Shown: piece after piece, positions 23,531-64,000 of the stretch | Position numbering within the stretch: position 1 is the first letter of the stretch | Layout: the number at the start of each line of letters is the position of its first letter | The notes under the pieces: generated by a model | What the model saw: the letters and a program-made list of their open reading frames with translations, nothing else | Told to the model about the DNA's origin: nothing | Databases searched by the model: none | Program-made: the position numbers and the translations under genes | DNA from: Eledone cirrhosa | Taxonomy: Eukaryota | DNA: 64,000 nucleotides | Reading direction: 5' to 3' | Assembly: GCA_964016885.1 (NCBI GenBank) | Contig: OZ024742.1 | Span: 370,264,001-370,328,000 of the forward strand

Positions 23531-23859
23531 GATAGGACTGGGGTCACTATCATTACACCTCCAACGAGATATACCTTGGAGGAGGCCAGCTAAATCTGCA
23601 TAGGTGTGAGCTGTCACACACACAGTGTTGAGATACACTATGTTTGAAATAAAATGATGGGGTAGTCATGTTTGGGATGTCTCAGTTCATTGGTCCAATT
23701 CCTCAAGGCTGACCAAGGGCTAAACAACAAATTCAGTATGATACAGTATGTTCTGGGTTCTAAACTAATGTCAATGTAGAATGCAGTAATTTCCTTTTTT
23801 CATAAATAGAAGTACTTTATTTTCAAAAGATAAATAAAAGCAAAATTAGTGAGAAAATA

Positions 23860-24492: not shown

Positions 24493-24679
24493 GAAAGTAG
24501 AGGAAAGGACTATGAAAGTCATAAATGAGATGAAAAGGAGGGAAAAAGCAAGGACTCTGGGGCCACAGGAGAAAAGTAGAGGGAGGGGGTGATGGGCCCT
24601 GGGAGACAAGACCACTAAAGTGTTAGCATTGGTGCCATGTAAACACCACACCCAGTGCACTCTGTAAAGTGGTTACAAT

Positions 24680-25690: not shown

Positions 25691-25714
25691 TTGATGTTAT
25701 TGAAGCAATCATTA

Positions 25715-28700
25715 AGAGAGAGAGAGAGGCAGCAGATGTGGGCTACAATATATATGTATAGAAGAGAGAGAGAGAGAGAGGCAACAGATGTGGGCTACAA
25801 TATATATGTATAGAAGAGAGAGAGAGAGGCAGCAGATGTGGGCTACAATATAAATGTATAGAAGAGAGAGAGAGAGAGAGAGGCAACAGATGTGGGCTAC
25901 AATATATATGTATAGAAGAGAGAGAGAGAGAGGCAGCAGATGTGGGCTACAATATATATGTATAGAAGAGAGAGAGAGAGAGAGAGGCAGCAGATGTGGG
26001 CTACAATATATATGTATAGAAGAGAGAGAGGGGGGCAACAGATGTGGGCTACAATATATATGTATAGAAGAAAGAGAGAGAGAGAGGCAGCAGATGTGGG
26101 CTACAATATATATGTATAGAAGAGAGAGAGAGAGAGAGGGCAACAGATGTGGGCTACAATATATATGTATAGAAGAGAGAGAGAGGGGCAACAGATGTGG
26201 GCTACAATATATATGTATAGAAGAGAGAGAGAGAGAGAGGCAGCAGATGTGGGCTACAATATATATGTATAGAAGAGAGAGAGAGAGAGAGAGGGGCAAC
26301 AGATGTGGGCTACAATATATATGTATAGAAGAGAGAGAGAGAGAGAGGCAGCAGATGTGGGCTACAATATATATGTATAGAAGAGAGAGAGAGAGAGAGG
26401 GGCAACAGATGTGGGCTACAATATATATGTATAGAAGAGAGAGAGAGAGAGAGAGAGGCAGCAGATGTGGGCTACAATATATATGTATAGAAGAGAGAGA
26501 GAGGGGCAACAGATGTGGGCTACAATATATATGTATAGAAGAGAGAGAGAGAGAGAGAGGCAGCAGATGTGGGCTACAATATATATGTATAGAAGAGAGA
26601 GAGAGAGAGAGGGGCAACAGATGTGGGCTACAATATATATGTATAGAAGAGAGAGAGAGGGGCAACAGATGTGGGCTACAATATATATGTATAGAAGAGA
26701 GAGAGAGGCAGCAGATGTGGGCTACAATATATATGTATAGAAGAGAGAGAGAGAGAGAGAGAGGGGCAACAGATGTGGGCTACAATATATATGTATAGAA
26801 GAGAGAGAGAGAGAGAGGCAGCAGATGTGGGCTACAATATATATGTATAGAAGAGAGAGAGAGAGAGAGAGGGGCAACAGATGTGGGCTACAATATATAT
26901 GTATAGAAGAGAGAGAGAGAGAGAGGCAACAGATGTGGGCTACAATATATATGTATAGAAGAGAGAGAGAGAGAGAGGCAACAGATGTGGGCTACAATAT
27001 ATATGTATAGAAGAGAGAGAGAGAGAGAGGCAGCAGATGTGGGCTACAATATATATGTATAGAAGAGAGAGAGAGAGAGAGGCAGCAGATGTGGGCTACA
27101 ATATATATGTATAGAAGAGAGAGAGAGAGAGAGGCAACAGATATGGGCTACAATATATATGTATAGGAGAGAGAGAGGCAACAGATGTGGGCTACAATAT
27201 ATATGTATAGAAGAGAGAGAGAGAGAGAGGGGCAACAGATGTGGGCTACAATATATATGTATAGAAGAGAGAGAGAGAGAGAGGCAGCAGATGTGGGCTA
27301 CAATATATATGTATAGAAGAGAGAGAGAGAGAGAGAGAGAGGGGCAACAGATGTGGGCTACAATATATATGTATAGAAGAGAGAGAGAGGCAGCAGATGT
27401 GGGCTACAATATATATGTATAGAAGAGAGAGAGAGAGAGAGAGGGGCAACAGATGTGGGCTACAATATATATGTATAGAAGAGAGAGAGGGGCAACAGAT
27501 GTGGGCTACAATATATATGTATACAAGAGAGAGAGAGAGAGAGGCAGCAGATGTGGGCTACAATATATATGTATAGAAGAGAGAGAGAGAGGGGCAACAG
27601 ATGTGGGCTACAATATATATGTATAGAAGAGAGAGAGAGAGGCAGCAGATGTGGGCTACAATATATATGTATAGAAGAGAGAGAGAGGGCAACAGATGTG
27701 GGCTACAATATATATGTATAGAAGAGAGAGAGAGAGAGGGGCAACAGATATGGGCTACAATATATATGTATAGAAGAGAGAGAGAGAGAGGGGCAACAGA
27801 TGTGGGCTACAATATATATGTATAGAAGAGAGAGAGAGGCAACAGATGTGGGCTACAATATATATGTATAGAAGAGAGAGACAGAGGCAACAGATGTGGG
27901 CTACAATATATATGTATAGAAGAGAGAGAGAGAGGCAGCAGATGTGGGCTACAATATATATGTATAGAAGAGAGAGAGAGAGGCAGCAGATGTGGGCTAC
28001 AATATATATGTATAGAAGAGAGAGAGAGAGGCAACAAATGTGGGCTACAATATATATGTATAGAAGAGAGAGAGAGAGGCAGCAGATGTAGGCTACAATA
28101 TATATGTATAGAAGAGAGAGAGAGAGAGGGGGGCAACAGATGTGGGCTACAATATATATCTATAGAAGAGAGAGAGAGAGGGGCAACAGATGTGGGCTAC
28201 AATATATATGTATAGAAGAGAGAGAGAGGGCAACAGATGTGGGCTACAATATATATGTATAGAAGAGAGAGAGAGAGAGGGGCAACAGATGTGGGCTACA
28301 ATATATATGTATAGAAGAGAGAGAGAGAGAGGGGCAACAGATGTGGGCTACAATATATATGTATAGAAGAGAGAGAGAGAGAGGGGCAACAGATGTGGGC
28401 TACAATATATATGTATAGAAGAGAGAGAGAGAGAGAGGCAACAGATGTGGGCTACAATATATATGTATAGAAGAGAGAGAGAGAGAGGCAACAGATGTGG
28501 GCTACAATATATATGTATAGAAGAGAGAGAGAGAGAGGGGGGGCAACAGATGTGGGCTACAATATATATGTATAGAAGAGAGAGAGAGAGAGGGGCAACA
28601 GATGTGGGCTACAATATATATGTATAGAAGAGAGAGAGAGAGGGCAACAGATGTGGGCTACAATATATATGTATAGAAGAGAGAGAGAGAGAGAGGCAAC

Positions 28701-31700
28701 AGATGTGGGCTACAATATATATGTATAGAAGAGAGAGAGAGAGGCAACAGATGTAGGCTACAATATATATGTATAGAAGAGAGAGAGGCAACAGATGTGG
28801 GCTACAATAGATATGTATAGAAGAGAGAGAGAGAGGGGCAACAGATGTGGGCTACAATATATATGTATAGAAGAGAGAGAGAGAGAGGGGCAACAGATGT
28901 GGGCTACAATATATATGTATAGAAGAGGGAGAGAGAGAGGGACAACAGATGTGGGCTACAATATATATGTATAGAAGAGAGAGAGAGAGAGGGGCAACAG
29001 ATGTGGGCTACAATATATATGTATAGAAGAGAGAGAGAGAGAGAGAGGCAACAGATGTGGGCTACAATATATATGTATAGAAGAGAGAGAGAGAGAGAGA
29101 GAGGCAACAGATGTGGGCTACAATATATATGTATAGAAGAGAGAGAGAGAGGCAGCAGATGTGGGCTACAATATATATGTATAGAAGAGAGAGAGAGAGA
29201 GAGAGAGGCAACAGATGTGGGCTACAATATATATGTATAGAAGAGAGAGAGAGAGGGGCAACAGATGTGGGCTACAATATATATGTATAGAAGAGAGAGA
29301 GAGAGGGGCAACAGATGTGGGCTACAATATATATGTATAGAAGAGAGAGAGAGAGAGAGGCAGCAGATGTGGGCTACAATATATATGTATAGAAGAGAGA
29401 GAGAGAGAGAGGCAACAGATGTGGGCTACAATATATATGTATAGAAGAGAGAGAGAGAGAGGCAGCAGATGTGGGCTACAATATATATGTATAGAAGAGA
29501 GAGAGAGAGAGAGAGAGGCAGCAGATGTGGGCTACAATATATATGTATAGAAGAGAGAGAGAGGGGCAACAGATGTGGGCTACAATATATATGTATAGAA
29601 GAGAGAGAGAGGCAGCAGATGTGGGCTACAATATATATGTATAGAAGAGAGAGAGAGAGAGGGGCAACAGATGTGGGCTACAATATATATGTATAGAAGA
29701 GAGAGAGAGGGGGGCAACAGATGTGGGCTACAATATATATGTATAGAAGAGAGAGAGAGGGGCAACAGATGTGGGCTACAATATATATGTATAGAAGAGA
29801 GAGAGAGAGAGAGGCAGCAGATGTGGGATACAATATATATGTATAGAAGAGAGAGAGAGAGAGAGAGAGGGCAACAGATGTGGGCTACAATATATATGTA
29901 TAGAAGAGAGAGAGAGAGAGAGGCAGCAGATGTGGGCTACAATATATATGTATAGAAGAGAGAGAGAGAGAGAGAGGGGCAACAGATGTGGGCTACAATA
30001 TATATGTATAGAAGAGAGAGAGAGAGAGAGGCAACAGATGTGGGCTACAATATATATGTATAGAAGAGAGAGAGAGAGAGAGTCAACAGATGTGGGCTAC
30101 AATATATATGTATAGAAGAGAGAGAGAGAGAGAGAGGCAGCAGATGTGGGCTACAATATATATGTATAGAAGAGAGAGAGAGAGAGAGGCAGCAGATGTG
30201 GGCTACAATATATATGTATAGAAGAGAGAGAGAGAGGCAACAGATATGGGCTACAATATATATGTATAGAAGAGAGAGAGAGAGGCAACAGATGTGGGCT
30301 ACAATATATATGTATAGAAGAGAGAGAGAGAGGGGGGCAACAGATGTGGGCTACAATATATATGTATAGAAGAGAGAGAGAGAGGCAGCAGATGTGGGCT
30401 ACAATATATATGTATAGAAGAGAGAGAGAGAGAGAGGGGCAACAGATGTGGGCTACAATATATATGTATAGAAGAGAGAGAGAGAGGCAGCAGATGTGGG
30501 CTTCAATATATATGTATAGAAGAGAGAGAGAGAGAGAGGGGCAACAGATGTGGGCTACAATATATATGTATAGAAGAGAGAGAGAGAGAGAGGCAGCAGA
30601 TGTGGGCTACAATATATATGTATAGAAGAGAGAGAGAGAGAGAGAGGGGCAACAGATGTGGGCTACAATATATATGTATAGAAGAGAGAGAGAGAGAGAG
30701 GCAACAGATGTGGGCTACAATATATATGTATAGAAGAGAGAGAGAGAGAGAGTCAACAGATGTGGGCTACAATATATATGTATAGAAGAGAGAGAGAGAG
30801 AGAGAGAGAGGCAGCAGATGTGGGCTACAATATATATGTATAGAAGAGAGAGAGAGAGAGAGGCAGCAGATGTGGGCTACAATATATATGTATAGAAGAG
30901 AGAGAGAGAGGCAACAGATATGGGCTACAATATATATGTATAGAACAGAGAGAGAGAGGCAACAGATGTGGGCTACAATATATATGTATAGAAGAGAGAG
31001 AGAGAGGGGGGCAACAGATGTGGGCTACAATATATATGTATAGAAGAGAGAGAGAGAGGCAGCAGATGTGGGCTACAATATATATGTATAGAAGAGAGAG
31101 AGAGAGAGAGGGGCAACAGATGTGGGCTACAATATATATGTATAGAAGAGAGAGAGAGAGGCAGCAGATGTGGGCTTCAATATATATGTATAGAAGAGAG
31201 AGAGAGAGAGAGGGGCAACAGATGTGGGCTACAATATATATGTATAGAAGAGAGAGAGAGAGGCAGCAGATGTGGGCTTCAATATATATGTATAGAAGAG
31301 AGAGAGAGGGGCAACAGATGTGGGCTACAATATATATGTATAGAAGAGAGAGAGAGAGAGGGGGGCAACAGATGTGGGCTACAATATATATCTATAGAAG
31401 AGAGAGAGAGAGGGGCAACAGATGTGGGCTACAATATATATGTATAGAAGAGAGAGAGAGGGCAACAGATGTGGGCTACAATATATATGTATAGAAGAGA
31501 GAGAGAGAGAGGGGCAACAGATGTGGGCTACAATATATATGTATAGAAGAGAGAGAGAGAGAGGGGCAACAGATGTGGGCTACAATATATATGTATAGAA
31601 GAGAGAGAGAGAGAGGGGCAACAGATGTGGGCTACAATATATATGTATAGAAGAGAGAGAGAGAGAGAGGCAACAGATGTGGGCTACAATATATATGTAT

Positions 31701-34700
31701 AGAAGAGAGAGAGAGAGAGGCAACAGATGTGGGCTACAATATATATGTATAGAAGAGAGAGAGAGAGAGGGGGGGCAACAGATGTGGGCTACAATATATA
31801 TGTATAGAAGAGAGAGAGAGAGAGGGGCAACAGATGTGGGCTACAATATATATGTATAGAAGAGAGAGAGAGAGGGCAACAGATGTGGGCTACAATATAT
31901 ATGTATAGAAGAGAGAGAGAGAGAGAGGCAACAGATGTGGGCTACAATATATATGTATAGAAGAGAGAGAGAGAGGCAACAGATGTAGGCTACAATATAT
32001 ATGTATAGAAGAGAGAGAGGCAACAGATGTGGGCTACAATAGATATGTATAGAAGAGAGAGAGAGAGGGGCAACAGATGTGGGCTACAATATATATGTAT
32101 AGAAGAGAGAGAGAGAGAGGGGCAACAGATGTGGGCTACAATATATATGTATAGAAGAGGGAGAGAGAGAGGGGCAACAGATGTGGGCTACAATATATAT
32201 GTATAGAAGAGAGAGAGAGAGAGGGGCAACAGATGTGGGCTACAATATATATGTATAGAAGAGAGAGAGAGAGAGAGAGGCAACAGATGTGGGCTACAAT
32301 ATATATGTATAGAAGAGAGAGAGAGAGAGAGAGAGGCAACAGATGTGGGCTACAATATATATGTATAGAAGAGAGAGAGAGAGGCAGCAGATGTGGGCTA
32401 CAATATATATGTATAGAAGAGAGAGAGAGAGAGAGAGAGGCAACAGATGTGGGCTACAATATATATGTATAGAAGAGAGAGAGAGAGGGGCAACAGATGT
32501 GGGCTACAATATATATGTATAGAAGAGAGAGAGAGAGGGGCAACAGATGTGGGCTACAATATATATGTATAGAAGAGAGAGAGAGAGAGAGGCAGCAGAT
32601 GTGGGCTACAATATATATGTATAGAAGAGAGAGAGAGAGAGAGGCAACAGATGTGGGCTACAATATATATGTATAGAAGAGAGAGAGAGAGAGGCAGCAG
32701 ATGTGGGCTACAATATATATGTATAGAAGAGAGAGAGAGAGAGAGAGAGGCAGCAGATGTGGGCTACAATATATATGTATAGAAGAGAGAGAGAGGGGCA
32801 ACAGATGTGGGCTACAATATATATGTATAGAAGAGAGAGAGAGGCAGCAGATGTGGGCTACAATATATATGTATAGAAGAGAGAGAGAGAGAGGGGCAAC
32901 AGATGTGGGCTACAATATATATGTATAGAAGAGAGAGAGAGGGGGGCAACAGATGTGGGCTACAATATATATGTATAGAAGAGAGAGAGAGGGGCAACAG
33001 ATGTGGGCTACAATATATATGTATAGAAGAGAGAGAGAGAGAGAGGCAGCAGATGTGGGATACAATATATATGTATAGAAGAGAGAGAGAGAGAGAGAGG
33101 GGCAACAGATGTGGGCTACAATATATATGTATAGAAGAGAGAGAGAGAGAGAGGCAGCAGATGTGGGCTACAATATATATGTATAGAAGAGAGAGAGAGA
33201 GAGAGAGGGCAACAGATGTGGGCTACAATATATATGTATAGAAGAGAGAGAGAGAGAGAGGCAACAGATGTGGGCTACAATATATATGTATAGAAGAGAG
33301 AGAGAGAGAGAGTCAACAGATGTGGGCTACAATATATATGTATAGAAGAGAGAGAGAGAGAGAGAGAGAGAGGCAGCAGATGTGGGCTACAATATATATG
33401 TATAGAAGAGAGAGAGAGAGAGAGGCAGCAGATGTGGGCTACAATATATATGTATAGAAGAGAGAGAGAGAGGCAACAGATATGGGCTACAATATATATG
33501 TATAGAAGAGAGAGAGAGAGGCAACAGATGTGGGCTACAATATATATGTATAGAAGAGAGAGAGAGAGGGGGGCAACAGATGTGGGCTACAATATATATG
33601 TATAGAAGAGAGAGAGAGAGGCAGCAGATGTGGGCTACAATATATATGTATAGAAGAGAGAGAGAGAGAGAGGGGCAACAGATGTGGGCTACAATATATA
33701 TGTATAGAAGAGAGAGAGAGAGGCAGCAGATGTGGGCTTCAATATATATGTATAGAAGAGAGAGAGAGAGAGAGGGGCAACAGATGTGGGCTACAATATA
33801 TATGTATAGAAGAGAGAGAGAGAGGCAGCAGATGTGGGCTTCAATATATATGTATAGAAGAGAGAGACAGGGGCAACAGATGTGGGCTACAATATATATG
33901 TATAGAAGAGAGAGAGAGAGGGGGGCAACAGATGTGGGCTACAATATATATGTATAGAAGAGAGAGAGAGAGGGGCAACAGATGTGGGCTACAATATATA
34001 TGTATAGAAGAGAGAGAGAGGGGCAACAGATGTGGGCTACAATATATATGTATAGAAGAGAGAGAGAGAGGGGCAACAGATGTGGGCTACAATATATATG
34101 TATAGAAGAGAGAGAGAGGGCAACAGATGTGGGCTACAATATATATGTATAGAAGAGAGAGAGAGAGAGGGGCAACAGATGTGGGCTACAATATATATGT
34201 ATAGAAGAGAGAGAGAGGGGCAACAGATGTGGGCTACAATATATATGTATAGAAGAGAAAAGAGAGAGGGGCAACAGATGTGGGCTACAATATATATGTA
34301 TAGAAGAGAGAGAGAGAGAGGGGCAACAGATGTGGGCTACAATATATATGTATAGAAGAGAGAGAGAGAGAGGGGGGGGGCAACAGATGTGGGCTACAAT
34401 ATATATGTATAGACGAGAGAGAGGGGCAACAGATGTGGGCTACAATATATATGTATAGAAGAGAGAGAGAGGGGCAACAGATGTGGGCTACAATATATAT
34501 GTATAGAAGAGAGAGAGAGGCAACAGATGTGGGCTACAATATATATGTATAGAAGAGAGAGAGAGAGGCAACAGATGTGGGCTACAATATATATGTATAG
34601 AAGAGAGAGAGAGAGGCAACAGATGTGGGCTACAATATATATGTATAGAAGAGAGAGAGAGAGGGGCAACAGATGTGGGCTACAATATATATGTATAGAA

Positions 34701-37700
34701 GAGAGAGAGAGAGAGGGGCAACAGATGTGGGCTACAATATATATGTATAGAAGAGAGAGAGAGAGAGGGGCAACAGATGTGGGCTACAATATATATGTAT
34801 AGAAGAGAGAGAGAGAGAGGGGCAACAGATGTGGGCTACAATATATATGTATAGAAGAGAGAGAGAGAGAGAGGCAACAGATGTGGGCTACAATATATAT
34901 GTATAGAAGAGAGAGAGAGAGAGAGAGAGGCAACAGATGTGGGCTACAATATATATGTATAGAAGAGAGAGAGAGGCAGCAGATGTGGGCTACAATATAT
35001 ATGTATAGGAGAGAGAGAGAGAGAGGGGCAACAGATGTGGGCTACAATATATATGTATAGAAGAGAGAGAGAGAGAGGGGCAACAGATGTGGGCTACAAT
35101 ATATATGTATAGAAGAGAGAGAGAGAGGGGCAACAGATGTGGGCTACAATATATATGTATAGAAGAGAGAGAGAGAGAGAGGCAGCAGATGTGGGCTACA
35201 ATATATATGTATAGAAGAGAGAGAGAGGGGGGCAACAGATGTGGGCTACAATATATATGTATAGAAGAGAGAGAGAGAGAGAGGGGCAACAGATGTGGGC
35301 TACAATATATATGTATAGAAGAGAGAGAGAGAGGGGCAACAGATGTGGGCTACAATATATATGTATAGAAGAGAGAGAGAGAGAGAGGCAGCAGATGTGG
35401 GCTACAATATATATGTATAGAAGAGAGAGAGGGGCAACAGATGTGGGCTACAATATATATGTATAGAAGAGAGAGAGAGAGAGAGAGAGGGGCAACAGAT
35501 GTGGGCTACAATATATATGTATAGAAGAGAGAGAGAGAGAGGGGCAGCAGATGTGGGCTACAATATATATGTATAGAAGAGAGAGAGAGAGAGGGGCAAC
35601 AGATGTGAGCTACGATATATATGTATAGAAGAGAGAGAGAGAGGGGCAACAGATGTGGGCTACAATATATATGTATACAAGAGAGAGAGAGAGAGGGGCA
35701 ACAGATGTGGGCTACAATATATATGTATAGAAGAGAGAGAGGCAACAGATGTGGGCTACAATATATATGTATAGAAGAGAGAGAGAGAGAGGGGCAACAG
35801 ATGTGGGCTACAATATATATGTATAGAAGAGAGAGAGGCAACAGATGTGGGCTACAATATATATGTATAGAAGAGAGAGAGAGAGGGGCAACAGATGTGG
35901 GCTACAATACATATGTATAGAAGAGAGAGAGAGAGAGGGGCAACAGATGTGGGCTACAATATATATGTATAGAAGAGAGAGAGAGAGGCAACAGATGTGG
36001 GCTACAATATATATGTATAGAAGAGAGAGAGAGAGAGAGGGGCAACAGATGTGGGCTACAATATATGTGTATAGAAGAGAGAGAGAGAGAGAGGCAACAG
36101 ATGTGGGCTACAATATATATGTATAGAAGAGAGAGAGAGAGAGGGGCAACAGATGTGGGCTACAATATATATGTATAGAAGAGAGAGAGAGAGAGGGGGG
36201 GGGCAACAGATGTGGGCTACAATATATATGTATAGACGAGAGAGAGGGGCAACAGATGTGGGCTACAATATATATGTATAGAAGAGAGAGAGAGGGGCAA
36301 CAGATGTGGGCTACAATATATATGTATAGAAGAGAGAGAGAGGCAACAGATGTGGGCTACAATATATATGTATAGAAGAGAGAGAGAGAGGCAACAGATG
36401 TGGGCTACAATATATATGTATAGAAGAGAGAGAGAGAGGCAACAGATGTGGGCTACAATATATATGTATAGAAGAGAGAGAGAGAGGGGCAACAGATGTG
36501 GGCTACAATATATATGTATAGAAGAGAGAGAGAGAGAGGGGCAACAGATGTGGGCTACAATATATATGTATAGAAGAGAGAGAGAGAGAGGGGCAACAGA
36601 TGTGGGCTACAATATATATGTATAGAAGAGAGAGAGAGAGAGGGGCAACAGATGTGGGCTACAATATATATGTATAGAAGAGAGAGAGAGAGAGAGGCAA
36701 CAGATGTGGGCTACAATATATATGTATAGAAGAGAGAGAGAGAGAGAGAGAGGCAACAGATGTGGGCTACAATATATATGTATAGAAGAGAGAGAGAGGC
36801 AGCAGATGTGGGCTACAATATATATGTATAGGAGAGAGAGAGAGAGAGGGGCAACAGATGTGGGCTACAATATATATGTATAGAAGAGAGAGAGAGAGAG
36901 GGGCAACAGATGTGGGCTACAATATATATGTATAGAAGAGAGAGAGAGAGGGGCAACAGATGTGGGCTACAATATATATGTATAGAAGAGAGAGAGAGAG
37001 AGAGGCAGCAGATGTGGGCTACAATATATATGTATAGAAGAGAGAGAGAGGGGGGCAACAGATGTGGGCTACAATATATATGTATAGAAGAGAGAGAGAG
37101 AGAGAGGGGCAACAGATGTGGGCTACAATATATATGTATAGAAGAGAGAGAGAGAGGGGCAACAGATGTGGGCTACAATATATATGTATAGAAGAGAGAG
37201 AGAGAGAGAGGCAGCAGATGTGGGCTACAATATATATGTATAGAAGAGAGAGAGGGGCAACAGATGTGGGCTACAATATATATGTATAGAAGAGAGAGAG
37301 AGAGAGAGAGAGGGGCAACAGATGTGGGCTACAATATATATGTATAGAAGAGAGAGAGAGAGAGGGGCAGCAGATGTGGGCTACAATATATATGTATAGA
37401 AGAGAGAGAGAGAGAGGGGCAACAGATGTGAGCTACGATATATATGTATAGAAGAGAGAGAGAGAGGGGCAACAGATGTGGGCTACAATATATATGTATA
37501 CAAGAGAGAGAGAGAGAGGGGCAACAGATGTGGGCTACAATATATATGTATAGAAGAGAGAGAGGCAACAGATGTGGGCTACAATATATATGTATAGAAG
37601 AGAGAGAGAGAGAGGGGCAACAGATGTGGGCTACAATATATATGTATAGAAGAGAGAGAGGCAACAGATGTGGGCTACAATATATATGTATAGAAGAGAG

Positions 37701-39320
37701 AGAGAGAGGGGCAACAGATGTGGGCTACAATATATATGTATAGAAGAGAGAGAGAGAGAGGGGCAACAGATGTGGGCTACAATATATATGTATAGAAGAG
37801 AGAGAGAGAGGCAACAGATGTGGGCTACAATATATATGTATAGAAGAGAGAGAGAGAGAGAGGGGCAACAGATGTGGGCTACAATATATGTGTATAGAAG
37901 AGAGAGAGAGAGAGAGGCAACAGATGTGGGCTACAATATATATGTATAGAAGAGAGAGAGAGAGAGGAGCAACAGATGTGGGCTACAATATATATGTATA
38001 GAAGAGAGAGAGAGAGGCAGCAGATGTGGGCTACAATATATATGTATAGAAGAGAGAGAGAGAGGCAGCAGATGTGGGCTACAATATATATGTATAGAAG
38101 AGAGAGAGAGAGGGGGGCAACAGATGTGGGCTACAATATATATGTATAGAAGAGAGAGAGGCAACAGATGTGGGCTACAATATATATGTATAGAAGAGAG
38201 AGAGAGGGGCAACAGATGTGGGCTACAATATATATGTATAGAAGAGAGAGAGAGGGGCAACAGATGTGGGCTACAATATATATGTATAGAAGAGAGAGAG
38301 AGAGAGAGGGGCAACAGATGTGGGCTACAATATATATGTATAGAAGAGAGAGAGAGAGAGAGGGGCAACAGATGTGGGCTACAATATATATGTATAGAAG
38401 AGAGAGAGAGAGGGGCAACAGATGTGGGCTACAATATATATGTATAGAAGAGAGAGAGAGAGAGAGAGAGGGGCAACAGATGTGGGCTACAATATATATG
38501 TATAGAAGAGAGAGAGAGAGAGGGGCAACAGATGTGGGCTACAATATATATGTATAGAAGAGAGAGAGAGAGAGGGGCAACAGATGTGGGCTACAATATA
38601 TATGTATAGAAGAGAGAGAGAGAGGGGCAACAGATGTGGGCTACAATATATATGTATAGAAGAGAGAGGGGGGCAACAGATGTGGGCTACAATATATATG
38701 TATAGAAGAGAGAGAGAGGGGCAACAGATGTGGGCTACAATATATATGTATAGAAGAGAGAGAGAGAGAGAGGGGCAACAGATGTGGGCTACAATATATA
38801 TGTATAGAAGAGAGAGAGAGAGGCAGCAGATGTGGGCTACAATATATATGTATAGAAGAGAGAGAGAGAGAGAGGGGCAACAGATGTGGGCTACAATATA
38901 TATGTATAGAAGAGAGAGAGAGAGAGGGGCAACAGATGTGGGCTACAATATATATGTATAGAAGAGAGAGAGGGCAACAGATGTGGGCTACAATATATAT
39001 GTATAGAAGAGAGAGAGAGAGAGGGGCAACAGATGTGGGCTACAATATATATGTATAGAAGAGAGAGAGAGAGAGGGGCAACAGATGTGGGCTACAATAT
39101 ATATGTATAGAAGAGAGAGAGAGAGGGGCAACAGATGTGGGCTACAATATATATGTATAGAAGAGAGAGAGAGAGGCAACAGATATGGGCTACAATATAT
39201 ATGTATAGAAGAGAGAGAGAGAGAGAGGCAACAGATGTGGGCTACAATATATATGTATAGAAGAGAGAGAGAGGGGCAACAGATGTGGGCTACAATATAT
39301 ATGTATAGAAGAGAGAGAGG
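25715..39320. repeat. Giant compound minisatellite C: core GGCA(A/G)CAGATGTGGGCTACAATATATATGTATAGAA plus variable (GA)n; units ~44-58 bp, ~275 copies
   Basis: Continuous tandem array. All MWATIYMYRRERE / LLYIYIVAHICC ORFs are translations of it. Confidence 0.98.
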
Positions 39321-45500: not shown

Positions 45501-45765
45501 ATGACGATGACGACCACCGCCGCCACCACCACCACCACCACCATGATACTTGCATGGTACTTAATGATTGAACCTTGAACAGGTCTCTCAATTGTTCAGT
45601 GTTAGCCAACTGACATCACCATAAACCACACCAAGACAATCACACGCCCCTCCCACAACCACCTTTCTATAAGTTGTCATTACCAGTAAAAACTAAATAT
45701 CAGTGATAACTCCACTTCACTCATCCTCTACTATTATGTTCAGGTTGTGGCCTGTTTTTCTATAA

Positions 45766-47901
45766 TTCCCTCCTTCAGACATATTCCACCGTCAGACATG
45801 TTGTTCCACCTTCAGACATGTTGTTCCACCGTCAGACATGTTCCCACCTTCAGACATGTTCCACCTTCAGACATGTTGTTCCACCCTCAGACATGTTCCA
45901 CCTTCAGACATGTTCCACCTTCAGACATGTTCCCACCTTCAGACATGTTCCCACCTTCAGACATGTTCCACCTTCAGACATGTTCCACCTTCAGACATGT
46001 TCCACCGTCAGACATGTTATTCCACCGTCAGACATGTTCCCTCCTTCAGACATGTTGTCCCACCGTCAGACATGTTGTCCCACCTTCAGACATGTTGCTC
46101 CACCTTCAGACATGTTGCTCCACCTTCAGACATGTTCCACCGTCAGACGTTATTCCACCGTCAGACATGTTCCCTCCTTCAGACATGTTGTCCCACCGTC
46201 AGACATGTTGTCCCACCGTCAGACATGTTGTTCCACCGTCAGACATGTTGTTCCACCTTCAGACATGTCCCACCGTCAGACATGTCCCACCTTCAGACAT
46301 GTTGTCCCACCTTCAGACATGTTGTTCCACCTTCAGACATGTTGTTCCACCTTCAGACATGTTGTCCCACCGTCAGACATGTCCCACATTCAGACATGTT
46401 GTCCCACCTTCAGACATGTTCCCACCTTCAGACATGTTGTTCCCACCTTCAGACATGTTGTTCCCACCCTCAGACATGTTGTTCCCACCCTCAGACATGT
46501 TGTTCCACCTTCAGACATGTCCCACCGTCAGACATGTTGTCCCACCTTCAGACATGTTGTCCCACCTTCAGACATGTCCCACCTTCAGACATGTTGTCCC
46601 ACCTTCAGACATGTTGTTCCACCTTCAGACATGTCCCACCTTCAGACATGTTGTCCCACCTTCAGACATGTTGTCCCACCGTCAGACATGTTGTCCCACC
46701 GTCAGACATGTTGTCCCACCGTCAGACATGTTGTTCTACCGTCAGACATGTTGTTCCACCGTCAGACATGTTCCACCGTCAGACATGTTGTCCCACCTTC
46801 AGACATGTTGTTCCACCTTCAGACATGTTGTCCCACCGTCAGACATGTTCCACCGTCAGACATGTTATTCCACCGTCAGACATGTTCCCTCCTTCAGACA
46901 TGTTGTCCCACCTTCAGACATGTTGTCCCACCGTCAGACATGTTCTACCTTCAGACATGTTGTTCCCACCTTCAGACATGTTCCCACCCTCAGACATGTT
47001 GTTCCCACCTTCAGACATGTTGTTCCCACCTTCAGACATGTTGTTCCCACCTTCAGACATGTTCCCACCTTCAGACATATTCCCACCTTCAGACATGTTC
47101 CCAACTTCAGACATGTTGTTCCCACCTTCAGACATGTTGTTCCCACCTTCAGACATGTTGTTCCACCGTCAGACATGTTCCCACCTTCAGACATGTTGTT
47201 CCCACCTTCAGACATGTTGTTCCCACCTTCAGACATGTTGTTCCACTGTCAGACATGTTCCCACCCTCAGACATGTTGTTCCCACCTTCAGACATGTTGT
47301 TCCCACCTTCAGACATGTTGTTCCCACCCTCAGACATGTTGTTCCCACCTTCAGACATGTTCCCACCTTCAGACATGTTGTTCCCACCTTCAGACATGTT
47401 GTTCCCACCTTCAGACATGTTGTTCCCACCTTCAGACATGTTCCCACCCTCAGACATGTTGTTCCCACCTTCAGACATGTTCCCACCCTCAGACATGTTG
47501 TTCCCACCTTCAGACATGTTCCACCTTCAGACATGTTGTTCCCACCTTCAGACATGTTCCCACCCTCAGACATGTTGTTCCCACCTTCAGACATGTTGTT
47601 CCCACCTTCAGACATGTTGTTCCCACCTTCAGACATGTTCCCACCTTCAGACATGTTGTTCCCACCTTCAGACATGTTCCCACCCTCAGACATGTTGTTC
47701 CCACCTTCAGACATGTTCCCACCTTCAGACATGTTGTTCCCACCTTCAGGCATGTTGTTCCCACCTTCAGACATATTGTTCCCACCCTCAGACATGTTCC
47801 CACCCTCAGACATGCTGTTCCCACCCTCAGACATGTTCCCACCCTCAGACATGTTGTTCCCACCCTCAGACATGTTCCCACCCTCAGACATGTTGTTCCC
47901 A
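45766..47901. repeat. Minisatellite D: 17-21-bp unit CCACC(T/G/C)TCAGACATGTT(GTT)C, ~110 copies
   Basis: Continuous tandem array with central palindrome ACATGT; no stop codons in any + frame. Confidence 0.97.
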
Positions 47902-47936
47902 GCTTTAGAAGCACCAACTACAGGCCTTACATATTA

Positions 47937-48290
47937 GGGTGGTGGATTGGTAGAATTGGTAGAGTGTTGGACAACAAGTTTCACAGCATACAATTATGGC
48001 CCTTTACATCCTTCATTCAAATCCCACTGAGGTTAGCTTTGCTCTTCATCCAAAGGGGGTTGATAAAATAAAGTACCAGTAATACACTGGGGTTGATAAA
48101 ATAAAGTACCAGTAATACACTGGGGTCGATAAAATAAAGTACCAGTAATACACTGGGGTCGATAAAATAAAGTACCAGTAATACACTGGGGGCGATAAAA
48201 TAAAGTACCAGTCATACACTGGGGGTGATTTAATCCACTTTCTCCTTCCCCCAAAATGTTGGCCATGTGCCTAAATCAGAAACAATTATT
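47937..48290 (+). mobile_element. Full-length-like SINE (second family) with internal 33-bp tandem repeat x5
   Basis: Head gggtggtggattggtagaattggtagag; degenerate B box ttcaaatccc; unit ggggtYgataaaataaagtaccagtaatacact at 48056-48225; 3' end gtgcctaaatcagaaacaattatt. Confidence 0.8.
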
Positions 48291-52887: not shown

Positions 52888-53662
52888 AATTTGAGCAAAA
52901 CACTTCATTTCACGTTGCACCAGAATATTTAACTGAAAATGAGTACCAGTAATAGCTAGGGGTTTAACCCTGTGATGGACTAGTGTCTTGTACTTTCAGT
53001 CACTTAACACAGCAGAAACCAGGATAAGCACCGGCCCGATGAGCTTCCAGTCTTGTGAGACTTTAACACTGTAATGGACTCGTGTCCTGTACTCTCAGTC
53101 ACTTAACACCAATGAAACTAAGACAGACTTTAACTCTGTAATGGACTGGTGTCCTGTCCAGGGGGTAGTCTTGTACTCTCAGTCACTTAACACCAATGAA
53201 ACTAAGACAGACTTTAACTCTGTAGTGGACTGGTGTCCTGTCCAGGGGGAAGTCTTGTACTCTCAGTCACTTAACACCAATGAAACTAAGACAGACTTTA
53301 ACTCTGTAATGGACTGGTGTCCTGTCCAGGGGGTAGTCTTGTACTCTCAGTCACTTAACACCAATGAAACTAAGACAGACTTTAACTCTGTAATGGACTC
53401 GTGTCCTGTCCAGGGGATAGTCTTGTACTCTCAGTCACTTCACACCAATGAAACTAAGACAGACTTTAACACTGTAATGGACTGGTGTCCTGTCCAGGGG
53501 GTAGTCTTGTACTCTCTGTCACTTAACACCAATGAAACTAAGACAGACTTTAACACTGTAATGGACTGGTGTCCTGTCCAGGGGGTAGTCTTGTACTCTC
53601 TGTCAATGCCATAGAAACCAGGCTAAGCACCAGCTTGAGTCTCCAGTCTTGAGAGACTTAAT
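52888..53662 (+). mobile_element. SINE body whose V-domain-like segment is amplified as an 84-bp tandem repeat (~6.5 copies)
   Basis: ttgagcaaaacacttcatttcacgttgc...aaatgagtaccag...aaccctgtgatggactag; unit starts at 53141, 53225, 53309, 53393, 53477 and 53561; exits via gaaaccaggctaagcacc, matching 53016. Confidence 0.8.
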
Positions 53663-59128: not shown

Positions 59129-59736
59129 TGGTGGCTGCCAACTCGTTTTTCGAGTACGGCCACTACTTTATATCCATGTAGGAGAACTCCTACCGATGTG
59201 CTGAACGAGTGTGACTCTTTAGTCCAGCCAGCGACTTGAAAACTCTGGTACAAACACTACACTTGTGACAATTATTGACACATAGTGCTGGGCCCATGGT
59301 ACCATATGTCGACAAGTGCAGAGAGAGCTCCAGATATAAAGCAATGCCTGTGCCGTGAAGCTTTTATAGTGAGCAAAGGCACTGCACAAAGCCAGTCCCA
59401 CTCTCTTAACCAAGAGGATATTTACCAAAAAGAAGAACAAGTCAACATCATTGGATACCATCAGGGTTGCAGGTGTTATATCAGAGTTTTCCTTCTCCTA
59501 GAATTCTGCCTTGACAAAGGCTAAGGGGTCATCTCTCCCGGTGGTTTTGGATGGCCATTGACTCTTAAGAGCTCCTTTGCCCTTTGACAGGTTTTGTTTT
59601 TAGTCCCGCAGGATGTCCAAAGTCACCCTCCTCACCAAGAAACCTTGGTGGGGTTGCCAGTTTAGTCGCCAACGACCCGACCATGACACAGGTTGTACTG
59701 GGATACAGTACAACCTGTGTCATGGTCAGGTCGTTG
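59129..59736 (-). mobile_element. ~610-bp non-autonomous RTE-derived element (5'UTR-like part + C-terminal C2H2 finger + 3' stem-loop) embedded in (TA)n
   Basis: Minus strand: 31-bp terminal hairpin; ctaggagaaggaaaactctga (RTE 5'UTR-like motif, from recall); [25 protein letters not shown] at 59273-59190; terminal stem-loop 59131-59163. Confidence 0.6.
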
Positions 59737-59851
59737 TATATATATATATACATACATATATATATACATATATACATATATACATATACATATACATATA
59801 TATATATACATATACATATATACATATATACATATATACATATATACATAT

Positions 59852-59904
<53 letters not shown>

Positions 59905-59935
59905 CACATATACATATATACATATATATATATAC

Positions 59936-59983
<48 letters not shown>

Positions 59984-60125
59984 TTATATATACACATATA
60001 CATATACATATATATATATATATATTTATATATACACATATACATATATACATATATATATATATATTTATATATATATATATTTATATATATATATATT
60101 TATATATACACATATACATATATAC

Positions 60126-60171
<46 letters not shown>
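59737..60171. repeat. (TA)n/(TACA)n microsatellite
   Basis: Directly visible. Confidence 0.95.
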
Positions 60172-60175
<4 letters not shown>

Positions 60176-60377
60176 TGTTATATTTGGGGAGGGTCATATT
60201 TGCGTAATATTGCCAGAATTAATAACAGAACACACTCACTGTTTGGTTGGTTTTCGCTTCTCGCTGTCTTTTATATATATATATCTGCGATCTAACTTAC
60301 TCGGTCCTCAATGTTGCCATTGACTGACCGGCGGTCAAAAATAATACAGATACAATATAGACAAACACATATATATA

Positions 60378-60427
60378 TAGTTTACATAAATCTTTCGTTG
60401 CACATCTGCAACATCGTCAGTGGTGTT
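60378..60427 (-). ncRNA. Hammerhead ribozyme-like motif (type I, PLE pseudo-LTR); stem I degenerate
   Basis: Minus strand: aacacca-CTGACGA-t-GTTGCA-gatg-TGCAAC-GAAA-gatttatgtaaa-CTA. Both conserved boxes and a perfect 6-bp stem II are present. Confidence 0.6.
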
Positions 60428-60686
60428 ATATTCATTGTTCCTCCTGTTGTGTTGTATGTCTACGCCATTTTTTTTTTGTTCAGTCTGTCTATATATTTAT
60501 TTATTTATTTGCTTATCTTATTTTATTTTGTCTTCTTTGCGCATGCGTTTGCGTGTGTGTATAGTGTTATGTGTGATGTGTGACTAGTGTGTATAGTGTT
60601 GTGTCTGCTGGGTGACTAGTGTGTGTTTATGTGCTTGTGTATGTATTTATTTATTTTATTTTATTTTATTTAATTTACTTATTTAT

Positions 60687-62273
60687 TTATACTTCTCTTA
60701 GGTCAGTGTTGTTTGTTTGGGTGTTGTTGTTGTTCCACTCATTCTTTCTGTTTAGCTTTGGTCTTCTAATTTCTATTTCACTGGCCTCTCTGATTTGCCT
60801 ATCTGCTGGGTCATTCCTATGTTTAGATATTATTCTAATTTCTATGTTGTCTATGTTACCGTCATGATGTTGTCTAGCATGTTCGTATAGTACTGACCCG
60901 TTTTTTCGTCCTTTTAGTTCCCCCCAGTGTTGGTCTATCCTTTCACCTATGCTACGAGCTGTCTCACCTATGTATGTTGTTGTCGTGTTTCTGCAAGTAC
61001 CCTCTGTACATCTTATGCTATAGACTACGTTTCTAGTTTTACAGTTTATTCGGGGGTTCACCTTACATATGATACATTTCCTATTGGTACAGTGGGTTTT
61101 CTTAAATGGGTAGGTTTTGCTGATCAGGGATTTTATGGTGGTTCCTGGCTTTTCTACCACCTTTATTTTTAAGTGGGTCTTTCTCAGGGCCTTTCTACAC
61201 TGGTTAGCTAATTTCCCTCCAGGGGTGGCGTCCACAAACATGACACTCTGATATCTCTGGTTGTCGTACCATGATGTGGCCTTCCCTATCTTATGTCTAG
61301 CCCTATCTAAGCTATTCCATGATTTGCTCCTGTATAGTGGGCAAATTCCTTTCATGTCCAGTTCTATGAGGGTCTTATACTTTTCCATGGCTCCTTCGTA
61401 TACTCTGACTCTGTCTCTTTGGTTGTAGCCAGAGAACTGCATGCGGTTGATGAAGTGTTGGATGTGTCCTTCCATTTCTGTTGGGTCGCACATGTTGGAC
61501 ACATTCTTCATCACTCGTACCAAATCTGCGATCAGAATATTAAACTTAGCACTACTGGACATTGCTGAGTTTTTGAGTATCAGGTATTTGGAGGCCATGG
61601 GTTTAGCATAGTGTGAGTGGAGAATTTGGGCTCTCTCGTCTATAGTGTTAATCCAGAGTTCTGTGTCTAATACAGGTAGTCTATTGTTAGGGTGTTTGGA
61701 AGGGAAGTCTATAGTTACAGTTATACTCTGGTGTATGGAATTAGCTATCTGCTGGATGCTTTCCATCGTGCTACGTTCTAAATCAAACTTGTTAGTGCTC
61801 TCTAGTGGGGGTGTTCTTATAACTATATTGATATCGTCTACATAACGAGAGTACATGATGAGGTCTATGGAGCTTTCATTAAGGAGATCTTTAAGTCTCC
61901 TTTCCCACCATACCATGAAAAGGTTGGCAACATCGCCAGCTATGCTGACGCCGATGGCTGCTCCCTCATTTTGGGTGTAGATTTTCTCATTGAACTTAAA
62001 TATGTGGCCCTTTAGGGTAGTTTTGATACTAGCCCCTATTGCATGTGCGACCATTTTTCTTACCTGATCAGTGTTTTGGGGGGTCCGTATAGCTTTGGTC
62101 CACCCAATCCACCTTCCTATGGGAGTCTTTTTAGCCATTGAGGTTATGGTGGGGGGTCTACCTCTTATAGGTCTACTAGGGCAGAAACATCTAAGGTCAT
62201 GGCTGTCTAGGTAGTCAGTGTCGTAGGTCCAGTTCGTCTGTGTCGACGTCGCAGAACTCCACCTCACTCTCAA
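60687..62273 (-). CDS. Penelope-like reverse transcriptase + C-terminal GIY-YIG endonuclease (partial; the annotated start is not a true start, and homology shifts frame near 62220)
   Basis: YTQNEGAAIG (motif B'), RYVDD (motif C), LPVLDTELW, linker CTNRKCIIC, VVYSIRC...C...YIGETARSIGERIDQH, LYEH, RQIREA, LNRKNEW. Confidence 0.88.
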   Translation of the reverse strand: MRVRWSSATSTQTNWTYDTDYLDSHDLRCFCPSRPIRGRPPTITSMAKKTPIGRWIGWTKAIRTPQNTDQVRKMVAHAIGASIKTTLKGHIFKFNEKIYTQNEGAAIGVSIAGDVANLFMVWWERRLKDLLNESSIDLIMYSRYVDDINIVIRTPPLESTNKFDLERSTMESIQQIANSIHQSITVTIDFPSKHPNNRLPVLDTELWINTIDERAQILHSHYAKPMASKYLILKNSAMSSSAKFNILIADLVRVMKNVSNMCDPTEMEGHIQHFINRMQFSGYNQRDRVRVYEGAMEKYKTLIELDMKGICPLYRSKSWNSLDRARHKIGKATSWYDNQRYQSVMFVDATPGGKLANQCRKALRKTHLKIKVVEKPGTTIKSLISKTYPFKKTHCTNRKCIICKVNPRINCKTRNVVYSIRCTEGTCRNTTTTYIGETARSIGERIDQHWGELKGRKNGSVLYEHARQHHDGNIDNIEIRIISKHRNDPADRQIREASEIEIRRPKLNRKNEWNNNNTQTNNTDLREV

Positions 62274-62329
62274 TGATCATCTCCACACATCTTTTCACAG
62301 CAAAATCAATGTTAATGGATGGGTACAGT

Positions 62330-62370
62330 GACACCACATCCATGGATGTGGTGTCGGAAGATCTTCCGAC
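62330..62370. other. Double-palindrome junction between the two PLEs
   Basis: Perfect 26-bp palindrome gacaccacatccatggatgtggtgtc (62330-62355) overlaps perfect 18-bp palindrome gtcggaagatcttccgac (62353-62370). Confidence 0.95.
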
Positions 62371-63614
62371 TCAGCTCAGGTAACTGACCTTGTGGGCTTA
62401 TTTTTAATCAATTCGCTACATAGGAAAATACCTGGTACTACCGGAGGTTTATATAGGGATGACATGCTTTTACTTATTAATAATAATAACCCTGAACTAA
62501 ATAGAAAATGTAAACAAATTACAAAATTTTTTAATTACTTTAACCTTAAAATAGAAATTGAGAACAAACAAAGAATAGTCAATTTCCTAGATATAACATT
62601 AAATCTCAACACATGTCTCCACTATCCTTTTCACAAGTTGAATGAAAACTTAAACTATGTCAACTTTAACTCTAACCACCCCAGATCTGTCAAAAACACT
62701 ATAGTAAACTCAGTCCAAAAACGTATCTCTAGGATCTCGTCGAATAGAAAGATTTTTGACGAAAAGGCCCAATACTATAATGATGCACTAGCTAGGGCAG
62801 GGTATGCTGATAAGATTGTGTACATAGATAATGATAAACAAACTAAACAAAGTAACAACTTTTTTTAATTATGGCAACAACATTAACAACTATAATAGAA
62901 AGCATTACAATAATTCCAAAGGACAAAAAAGAAATAGAACTAGGAACATAATTTGGTTTGCCCCCCCCTTTCTCACTAAACATTAAAACCCACATCGCTA
63001 AATTATTTTTCAAAGCTCTTGATAATCGCTTCCCTAGAACACATAGGTACCACTCAATCTTCAATAGGCATACAATTAAATTAACCTACTCATCCACCAA
63101 AAATTTAGCACAAAATATTAATAGAATAAATAATAGGAACTTAAAACCTACTGATAATAGCATAAATAATATACAAGTTAACAAATGTAACTGTAGAGAT
63201 AGATCTAAATGTCCGTTAAATAACAACTGCTTAGTTAAAAATATAGTATACAATTGTAATGTTAATACTGACTCTAATTCTTTTAACTACGTCGGTTCCA
63301 CATCGACGGAATTTAAACTTCGCTATAATAACCACAAGAATTCTTTCACAGATCCAAATAAAAAATCTTCAACGGCACTATCAGGTGTACTCTGGCAACT
63401 TAAGCTAGATAACGTTAGATATTCGACGGCTTGGAATATAGTCTCAAGAGGGATTCCTTTTAATTCATCCTCTGAGACATGTGACCTCTGCGCAGAGGAG
63501 ATATTCTTTATACTAAAATCTAAAAATTCCCTTAACCTACGGACAAATTTATTCAGTTGTTGCAAACATAGATTAAACTCAACGTTTAAATATAAATTTA
63601 AATTTAAAATGTAG
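62362..63614 (+). pseudogene. Penelope-like element 2: RT (from motif B') + GIY-YIG, 5' truncated, with two +1 frameshifts in homopolymers
   Basis: SSDSAQVTDLVGLFL, GLYRDD, VNFLDITLNL, SNHP, RNIIWFAPPFS, CNCRDRSKCPLNNNC, IVY...YVGST..FKLRYNNH, CDLCAEE, LNLR...CKH. ORFs 62392-62868 and 62958-63614 join via shifts at T7 (62860) and C8 (62961). Confidence 0.88.
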
Positions 63615-64000
63615 TATATTTAGTTTGATTTATATTTATATGAGAACTAGCCGATAAATCTTTTGATTCCTAAATCTTTGATTCCCTCTTTTTACTCTTT
63701 TTATTGTTTATTTTATTTTATTTATTTTTATTTTTATTTTTTTTATTTTTATCTAAACATTCCTCATGAAAAATTAAGCTACCCTAAAAGCCGATGCTCC
63801 AAATTTTTTGAATTAACCTTACACTTGATAAACTTATATATTAAATATAGGAACATATGTAGACATTATTGGACATCATAATCTTCTTTGCGATATTCCT
63901 TGCTAGATGTGATTTGATAGATAATTTTTGGCTTTGTCTTGTAGTGAACTTGGCAATATATTGTCAATTAACTTTTGAAGGGTTGTTCTTTGTGGTTTAT

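What the first reader, a model, noticed from the sequence alone, without database searches (positions are those of the whole stretch)
62330..62370. Two different Penelope elements fused head-to-head through twin perfect palindromes (P-nucleotide-like junction)
Seen: PLE 1 (minus) ends at RT motif A and its last 13 nt are mirrored (26-bp palindrome centred 62342/3). PLE 2 (plus) begins in motif B' and its first 9 nt are mirrored (18-bp palindrome centred 62361/2). The two mirrored tails overlap by GTC (62353-62355) with no other filler. Established: hairpin-sealed ends opened off-centre give palindromic additions (V(D)J coding joints, hAT/Transib excision footprints), and fold-back synthesis plus microhomology joining gives similar scars. 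Inference: either two cDNAs from unrelated PLE families were co-integrated at one break, each self-primed by snap-back (seeds TCCATGGA and GATC), or a hairpin-mediated deletion joined two pre-existing elements. This may be a direct trace of how PLE 5' ends are completed, and is the most unusual structure in the window.
Basis: partly seen in the sequence, partly recalled or inferred. Interest (0 to 1): 0.75.

Follow-up and report, generated by a model that had tools for sequence, protein, structure and literature searches.

The report
Repair scar joining two Penelope elements
Two unrelated jumping-gene copies are joined head to head by 15 bases copied from their own ends, likely a DNA-repair patch that fused two separate insertions rather than a hallmark of how these elements normally finish inserting.

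Summary
Both palindromes are real, non-native apart from their central four bases (CATG, GATC), and the junction is single-copy. The partners are a Neptune-like and a Hydra-clade Penelope-like element, both young. The 15-nt filler is 11 nt copied from one end plus 7 nt from the other, overlapping by GTC: the pattern of synthesis-dependent microhomology joining, not of V(D)J-type P nucleotides. Head-to-head pairs are the norm in both families, but same-family pairs carry one short and one long outer end (33 of 33), near-identical arms and mostly a short target duplication. This pair is short+short with no duplication, so it probably joins two separate insertions; one-break co-integration is disfavoured. 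Inverted copies of 10 nt or more occur at 11 of 150 other 5' junctions (controls 1%), never on both ends; one other cross-family pair was found. No reciprocal junction and no read across the joint were found. Fold-back joints and head-to-head Penelope pairs are described in print, and this scan noted the latter in other genomes. A new variant of a known kind; moderate interest.

The parts
60174..62344 (-). PLE1: 5'-truncated Neptune-like Penelope element (RT from motif A, CX4CxxC linker, C-terminal GIY-YIG, 3' tail ending at the family's short end); private 17-bp deletion at 62228
   Evidence: Translation; Pfam RVT_1 E 9e-4, below cut-off; 0.24% from copy L033 and 4 mismatches in 2147 to L119; short end; deletion in 0 other loci against 40 intact hits
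62330..62355 (.). Palindrome 1, 26 bp, no loop; native to 62344
62341..62344 (.). Native CATG, last four native bases of PLE1; likely pairing seed
62345..62359 (.). 15-nt non-native filler: 11 nt of PLE1 sense plus 7 nt of PLE2 antisense, sharing 3 nt
   Evidence: read directly from the sequence against family copies; depth 0-0.29 in four other runs
62353..62355 (.). GTC, microhomology that exists only after both extensions
62353..62370 (.). Palindrome 2, 18 bp, no loop; native from 62360
62360..62363 (.). Native GATC, first four native bases of PLE2; likely pairing seed
62360..64000 (+). PLE2: 5'-truncated Hydra-clade Penelope element (RT from motif B', GIY-YIG); continues beyond the window to its short pLTR end at about 65239, then a TA/CA microsatellite
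   Evidence: 0.40% from nearest sampled copy
59737..60173 (.). TA/CA microsatellite target at PLE1's 3' end; its last bases do not repeat at PLE2's 3' end

Best explanation
This is a single-copy joint between a Neptune-like and a Hydra-clade Penelope element whose 15 added bases are copies of the two elements' own ends, likely laid down by synthesis-dependent microhomology end joining when two separate insertions were fused. Shown: each element ends on a native 4-base palindrome, the filler is 11 + 7 - 3 templated bases, and the pair lacks the short+long ends and target duplication of a normal one-step double insertion. Inferred: each single-stranded 3' end paired through CATG or GATC, either on itself or on the identical sister cDNA that these elements make at every double insertion, was extended 11 and 7 bases, released, and annealed to the other family's end through the newly made GTC/GAC; the DNA between the two target sites, including any long-ended sister arms, was lost. 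Because the families are unrelated, at least one extension must have used its own family's antisense strand as template; RNA template jumping alone cannot build it. Whether the two insertions were simultaneous (cDNA to cDNA) or successive (new cDNA to a trimmed older copy) is not resolved; the polymerase (host Pol theta-like or the element's RT) is not identified.
For: Native boundaries and filler. Both centres on native 4-mers, background 5.3% and 7.7% of positions. Short+long outer ends in 23 of 23 PLE2 and 10 of 10 PLE1 same-family doubles with both ends seen; window short+short. Arms of 7 of 7 testable PLE2 doubles differ by 0-0.52%, closer than at least 88% of other copies. Microsatellite imperfections recur at both ends in 5 of 6 informative doubles of 23 (2 exact), and a flank predicted from the window's PLE2 end picked 4 other doubles whose partner carried it (3 exact, 1 with one difference); the window's two flanks do not match. 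No 5' remainder of PLE1 in 15 kb to the right, so not a nested insertion. Perfect inverted arms >=10 nt near 11 of 150 other junctions (6/68, 4/50, 1/32) against 4/400 and 4/400 shuffled junctions. A fold-back from a 2-bp seed recurs at one site with three lengths in 3 of 20 copies of a neighbouring element. Pol theta extends stem-loops from two base pairs to create microhomology (PMC11292364, passages); cDNA snap-back before 5' joining is reported for R2 (PMC11371274, passages); two distinct 5'-truncated L1s joined head to head by synchronous events are reported (10.1101/2024.08.27.596794, passages).
Against: Self-folding on CATG or GATC needs a loop of 0-2 bases; folding shows no terminal hairpin for the native ends alone, so the in-cis version is strained and the sister-cDNA version is untested. 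None of 150 other junctions has mirrors on both ends, and none has a no-loop mirror in non-microsatellite element sequence. Only 3 of the 11 inverted cases are clear short mirrors of the element's own end (L080, L134, L149); 3 are target-side mirrors on TA, 3 are long arms ending near one point, 1 looks like a template jump, 1 may be a host hairpin. No reciprocal long+long junction was found. The target-duplication rule was derived from same-family pairs. The samples are not random: they favour young copies that reach the RT region.
Confidence: 0.6

Rival explanations
1. The mirrors are stumps of two long perfect palindromes. Each family first made its usual head-to-head double, joined at the self-complementary CATG or GATC; a later deletion through GTC, or cleavage to hairpin-capped ends opened off-centre, removed both inner arms and the tract between them.
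For: Explains no-loop centres with ordinary pairing between two identical cDNA ends, and predicts short+short ends without target duplication, as seen. Doubles whose arms end within about 30 nt of each other exist (L029, L033, L078). Different families often share one TA tract.
Against: None of the sampled doubles is a perfect no-loop palindrome, so two side by side is a rare start, though such palindromes may be lost or misassembled. Both deletion ends must fall within 11 nt of the centres.
Confidence: 0.2
2. Co-integration at one break: a Neptune-like and a Hydra-type ribonucleoprotein each primed one end of the same cut, and their cDNAs were joined after snap-back.
For: Both copies are among the youngest of their families; both 3' ends face outward into microsatellite like a normal double; a second cross-family pair, L142, is short+long with a 1-nt overlap and ages 2.0% and 1.7%.
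Against: Short+short ends and unmatched flanks; near-identical arms show strong same-source preference in doubles; L142 joins two related Neptune-like families (59% amino-acid identity), not two clades.
Confidence: 0.1
3. Assembly or library chimera of two repeat-derived reads.
For: Single copy; indel noise is visible in some palindromic loci of this assembly.
Against: The filler is exactly templated from both ends with a 3-nt overlap; comparable templated fillers occur at many junctions; both elements are otherwise clean on a 379-Mb contig.
Confidence: 0.07
4. True P-nucleotide-type addition: blunt ends sealed covalently into hairpins by a RAG/hAT-like reaction and opened off-centre.
For: No-loop perfect symmetry at both ends.
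Against: Sealing needs no native palindrome, yet both centres have one (joint background about 0.4%); P nucleotides are one to three bases, mostly two (PMC3528771 abstract); no DNA-transposon end is present at the joint.
Confidence: 0.03

Closest known systems
Inverted (head-to-head) insertion units of endonuclease-bearing Penelope-like elements (PMC3846280, passages; PMC8557442, passages and section 11)
   Same: Two 5'-truncated copies joined at their 5' ends, 3' ends outward in (TA)n; palindromes at inverted junctions were noted and read as self-priming; a tail at only one end is described.
   Different: Partners here belong to two clades with unalignable proteins; both ends are short; no target duplication; both ends carry a short mirror.
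Synthesis-dependent microhomology end joining / Pol theta stem-loop extension (PMC5728401, PMC11292364, passages); yeast local fold-back inversions (PMC11724301, passages)
   Same: Short inverted copy of break-proximal sequence, tiny pairing seed, new microhomology that completes the join.
   Different: Both ends extended; no loop at either centre; enzyme untested here.
R2 cDNA snap-back 5' junctions (PMC11371274, passages)
   Same: cDNA 3' end primes synthesis on cDNA or nearby target before the 5' joint forms; target-side mirrors also occur in this genome.
   Different: R2 joins cDNA to target DNA; here two different retroelements are joined.
Synchronous L1 bridges (10.1101/2024.08.27.596794, passages)
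   Same: Two distinct 5'-truncated elements in inverted orientation joined at 5' breakpoints, with flanks from different target sites.
   Different: Somatic, one family, with a reciprocal bridge; here germline, two PLE clades, and no reciprocal was found.
P nucleotides of V(D)J joints (PMC3528771, abstract)
   Same: Perfect no-loop palindromic additions.
   Different: Much longer additions, centred on native palindromes.

Membership tests
Hydra-clade PLE (PLE2) | RWK-type and DKT motifs, single ORF, C-terminal GIY-YIG, no N-terminal endonuclease | tested here: met
   745-aa ORF of copy L027 has IRWRAF and DKT and a C-terminal VYN..YVG endonuclease against the description in PMC8557442 section 11; read by eye, Pfam gives no hit
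Hydra-clade PLE (PLE2) | CxCX5C linker, CxxC and CxH motifs, no CCHH | tested here: met
   CNCRDRSKC, CDLC, CKH in the ORF
Hydra-clade PLE (PLE2) | Insertion into (TA)n | tested here: met
   3' ends abut TA repeats in the doubles and singles examined
Hydra-clade PLE (PLE2) | Canonical hammerhead ribozyme in the pLTR | tested here: inconclusive
   No hammerhead family hit in Rfam at E<=1 over the composite; no dedicated motif search
Hydra-clade PLE (PLE2) | Placement in an RT phylogeny | not tested
   No tree built
Neptune-like PLE (PLE1) | C-terminal GIY-YIG with CX2-5CxxC linker | tested here: met
   CTNRKCIIC before VVYSIRC..YIGET; feature from PMC8557442 passages; Nematis shares it, so the clade name is tentative
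Neptune-like PLE (PLE1) | Placement in an RT phylogeny | not tested
   No tree built
Canonical one-step PLE double insertion | Both arms from one family and source | tested here: not met
   Unrelated proteins; same-family arms 0-0.52% apart
Canonical one-step PLE double insertion | One short and one long (tailed) outer end | tested here: not met
   33 of 33 same-family doubles short+long; window short+short
Canonical one-step PLE double insertion | Short target-site duplication | tested here: not met
   Flank imperfections do not match in the window; they recur in 5 of 6 informative sampled doubles and 4 of 4 predicted ones, exactly in 5 of these 10
SD-MMEJ / theta-mediated joint | Insertion templated from within about 30 nt of the ends, with primer repeat and final microhomology | tested here: met
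   All 15 nt templated; seeds CATG and GATC; GTC overlap
SD-MMEJ / theta-mediated joint | Dependence on Pol theta | not testable with these tools
   Needs genetics or biochemistry
P-nucleotide joint | One to three palindromic bases at a hairpin-sealed end, independent of native palindromes | tested here: not met
   11 and 7 nt added; both centres on native 4-mers
Synchronous retrotransposon bridge | Reciprocal junction carrying the complementary ends and heteroduplicated flanks | tested here: inconclusive
   4 of 4 PLE2 long ends with the predicted flank have their own same-family partner; of 8 PLE1 long ends with predicted flanks none showed PLE2, and the one long arm comes from another variant lineage; only 30 of 115 looser matches were read

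The most novel reading that the evidence does not exclude
Two Penelope-like elements of different clades retrotransposed at the same moment at two sites in one germline nucleus; their short-end cDNAs first primed on their own sister cDNAs at self-complementary 4-mers, then swapped partners and joined, deleting or rearranging the DNA between the sites. The joint would be a germline, cross-clade counterpart of synchronous L1 bridges and direct evidence that both cDNAs of a PLE double exist as free single strands before they are joined.
Probability: 0.3. Interest if true: 0.62.

Novelty: new variant of a known kind. Interest (0 to 1): 0.4.

Why it matters
How Penelope-like elements build their inverted double insertions is open. 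The joint itself is probably a rare repair outcome, but it is informative because two unrelated families cannot be confused: it requires that an element's antisense strand templated its own family's extension. The survey made to test it gives a sharper and more general result: same-family doubles carry one short and one long end in 33 of 33 cases, near-identical arms and a target duplication of about 9-11 bases, which fits both target strands priming at the two initiation sites reported in vitro (PMC11167929) rather than self-priming on an antisense RNA. Pairs that break this rule can be used to find PLE-linked deletions or rearrangements in assemblies.

Tried and rejected
Reads: no record bridged the joint in 8 runs laid (six contig sets, two reduced-representation read sets, apparently other individuals or species); loose ends only gave the native continuations. 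This is no evidence either way. Nested insertion of PLE2 into PLE1: rejected, no 5' PLE1 remainder in the 15 kb to the right. Multi-copy chimeric element: rejected, one match. Native palindromes: rejected. Age difference as an argument against simultaneity: the first identities (86-95%) were misleading; substitution-only distances are 0.24% and 0.40%, and PLE1 has far more copies than searches suggested (1545 candidates). L011 as a second cross-family pair: dropped, its neighbour is an old broken relative. L298 as a long+long exception: dropped, its inverted arm runs on into the next tandem unit. The k-mer walk ran through partner arms and was redone. Reciprocal junction: not found; the 5' end of candidate L316 could not be retrieved but its variants match another lineage. 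Literature searches for cross-family PLE fusions gave nothing relevant; the library lacks most subscription papers, and no supplements were read, so described cases may exist there. Rows dropped before counts: 18 near full-length and 3 repeated or swapped PLE2 loci of 89; 11 of 61 PLE1 loci (no defined 5' end, internal duplication or duplicate); 6 of 38.

Full report
Observation. The window holds two perfect palindromes, 62330-62355 and 62353-62370, overlapping by GTC. They are the longest of 14 non-simple palindromes with arm 6 or more; none of 300 simulated sequences of the region's length reached arm 11. To the left lies a minus-strand Penelope-like element (PLE1) cut in RT motif A; to the right a plus-strand one (PLE2) starting in motif B'. 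A 23-base pattern across the joint matches once in the 3.0-Gb genome at up to one mismatch.

What is native. All 29 other PLE2 copies fetched continue upstream as ...ACTATGG before GATC. None of 22 PLE1 copies covering the site has the mirror; most read GGCAGCATGG and two read GGCACCATGG; 30 of 38 further loci matched the site and none had TCCATGG. Loose ends of public contigs stop at 62344 and 62360. So the added DNA is 15 bases, 62345-62359: 11 bases of PLE1 sense and 7 of PLE2 antisense sharing GTC. Each element ends exactly on a native four-base palindrome, CATG and GATC; such centres make up 5.3% and 7.7% of positions in the two elements.

The partners. PLE2's 745-residue ORF shows the motifs listed for the Hydra clade (against PMC8557442 section 11). 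PLE1 has a CX4CxxC linker before a C-terminal GIY-YIG domain, as in Neptune and Nematis (PMC8557442 passages), and an asparagine-rich N-terminal region. The proteins have no significant BLASTP match. Clade names rest on motifs; no tree was built. Both copies are young: 0.24% and 0.40% substitutions from the nearest sampled copies. PLE2 continues past the window to about 65239 and ends in microsatellite; no 5' part of PLE1 follows, so this is not a nested insertion.

How these families normally insert. Of 68 distinct truncated PLE2 junctions, 51 have an inverted same-family copy directly upstream and 3 more have one after a gap; 18 of 32 young PLE1 junctions do too (read by eye). Joints are short overlaps or fillers, several of them direct repeats of nearby sequence. 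This architecture is described (PMC3846280 and PMC8557442, passages). In these doubles one outer 3' end is short and the other long in 23 of 23 PLE2 and 10 of 10 PLE1 cases with both ends seen. Arms of 7 of 7 testable doubles differ by 0-0.52%. Imperfections in the TA flank recur on both sides in 5 of 6 informative doubles among 23, exactly in 2; a long-end flank predicted from the window's PLE2 end retrieved four other doubles whose short partner carried the same flank, three exactly; the like rule for PLE1 held in loci L312-L314. This fits a single reaction at one staggered cut using two initiation sites, in line with a purified PLE protein that cuts and extends both strands and starts at two sites (PMC11167929, first two of four parts read). 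Earlier notes of this scan also inferred one RNA for both arms; my arm comparison was made before seeing them and tests source identity, not molecule identity.

Why the window is different. Both of its outer ends are short, and the flank that follows PLE2 is not repeated before PLE1. It therefore looks like the outer halves of two separate insertions joined with loss of what lay between. Copies without a partner can be short or long (PLE2: 5 short, 7 long, 2 not found, of 14), so two independent events readily give short+short. A second cross-family pair, L142, joins PLE1 to a related family with a one-base overlap and is short+long; it may be a true shared event, and shows that cross-family pairs are rare but not unique (1 of 150 other junctions).

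How common are mirrors. Perfect inverted arms of 10 or more non-simple bases lie at 6 of 68, 4 of 50 and 1 of 32 junctions, against 4 of 400 and 4 of 400 shuffled junctions. Read by eye, three are short mirrors of the element's own end (L080, L134, L149), three are mirrors of the host flank centred on TA (L028, L103, L114), three are long arms ending near the same point (L029, L033, L078), one is a likely template jump (L201) and one may be a host hairpin (L140). None is mirrored on both ends. A different repeat 2.6 kb to the left shows a fold-back with a 7-base loop that recurs at the same place with three lengths in 3 of 20 copies. Fold-back synthesis at insertion ends is thus a recurrent minority outcome in this genome, not the rule.

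Mechanism. Strands grow only at 3' ends: the top strand from 62344 rightward, the bottom from 62360 leftward. The first piece each must add is its own family's sense sequence, which needs an antisense template of the same family. One strand could have laid both pieces, using the other element's RNA for the second, but at least one own-family extension is unavoidable (inference from the sequence). The template may be the strand itself or its identical sister cDNA; the latter pairs through four ordinary base pairs and avoids a loop of 0-2 bases, which folding does not support for the native ends. Release and annealing at the new GTC/GAC completes the joint. This is the logic of synthesis-dependent microhomology joining (PMC5728401, PMC11292364, PMC11724301; passages) and of R2 snap-back junctions (PMC11371274, passages). 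P nucleotides are shorter and need no native seed (PMC3528771, abstract only).

Timing. Simultaneous events have a precedent in L1 bridges (10.1101/2024.08.27.596794, passages) and predict a reciprocal long+long junction. I looked: all 4 PLE2 long ends with the predicted flank have their own partner; none of 8 PLE1 long ends with predicted flanks, nor 30 of 115 looser matches, is joined to PLE2, and the one long candidate arm belongs to another variant lineage. A deletion would leave no reciprocal, so this does not decide. A later deletion between two perfect palindromic doubles gives the same sequence and stays as the main rival.

Limits. No read spans the joint in the eight runs laid, which seem not to be the assembled individual. 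Samples favour young copies reaching the RT region, and junction classes were partly read by eye. No empty allele was available. No supplementary files were read. Searches for a published cross-family PLE fusion found none, within a library that lacks most subscription papers.

Verdict. Real, single-copy, and best read as a templated repair joint between two separate insertions of different PLE clades. New variant of a known kind; interest 0.4.

Noticed in passing
window 59131-59736: A roughly 600-bp high-copy repeat between TA tracts (1359 candidates) whose window copy ends in a non-native fold-back: 30-nt arms with one mismatch and a 7-nt loop at 59670-59736; the same fold point recurs with shorter arms in L165 and L166.
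   Followed up: partly
PLE2 and PLE1 doubles genome-wide (L236-L275, L118-L156): Same-family head-to-head doubles always pair one short and one long 3' end (33 of 33) and have near-identical arms and a duplication of about 9-11 target bases.
   Followed up: yes
L142:1330-4710 (G000:C3, about 122.71 Mb): Second cross-family head-to-head pair: PLE1 joined to a related Neptune-like family by a one-base overlap, short+long ends, both about 2% from nearest copies.
   Followed up: yes
L028, L103, L114: Target-side mirrors: the host flank is copied back on itself around the TA tract (12-22 non-simple bases) before joining the element's 5' end.
   Followed up: partly
L008 and L102: Two PLE2 doubles 420 kb apart share the same 5' junction (same truncation points) but different flanks, suggesting a copied composite or a recurrent joint.
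   Followed up: no
L226:482-3400 minus; L119: PLE1's ORF has a long asparagine-rich region upstream of the RT, recalling the N-rich inserts described for Adineta Pen2a-Pen4 (PMC3846280 passages).
   Followed up: no
window 62228 and 62860-62961: PLE1 has a private 17-bp deletion in the RT; PLE2 has one-base frameshifts in homopolymer runs near 62860 and 62961 relative to reads, which may be assembly errors.
   Followed up: partly
window 25700-39000, 45690-48070, 53075-53611, 23800-24620: Several large minisatellite arrays giving repetitive open frames; not examined.
   Followed up: no
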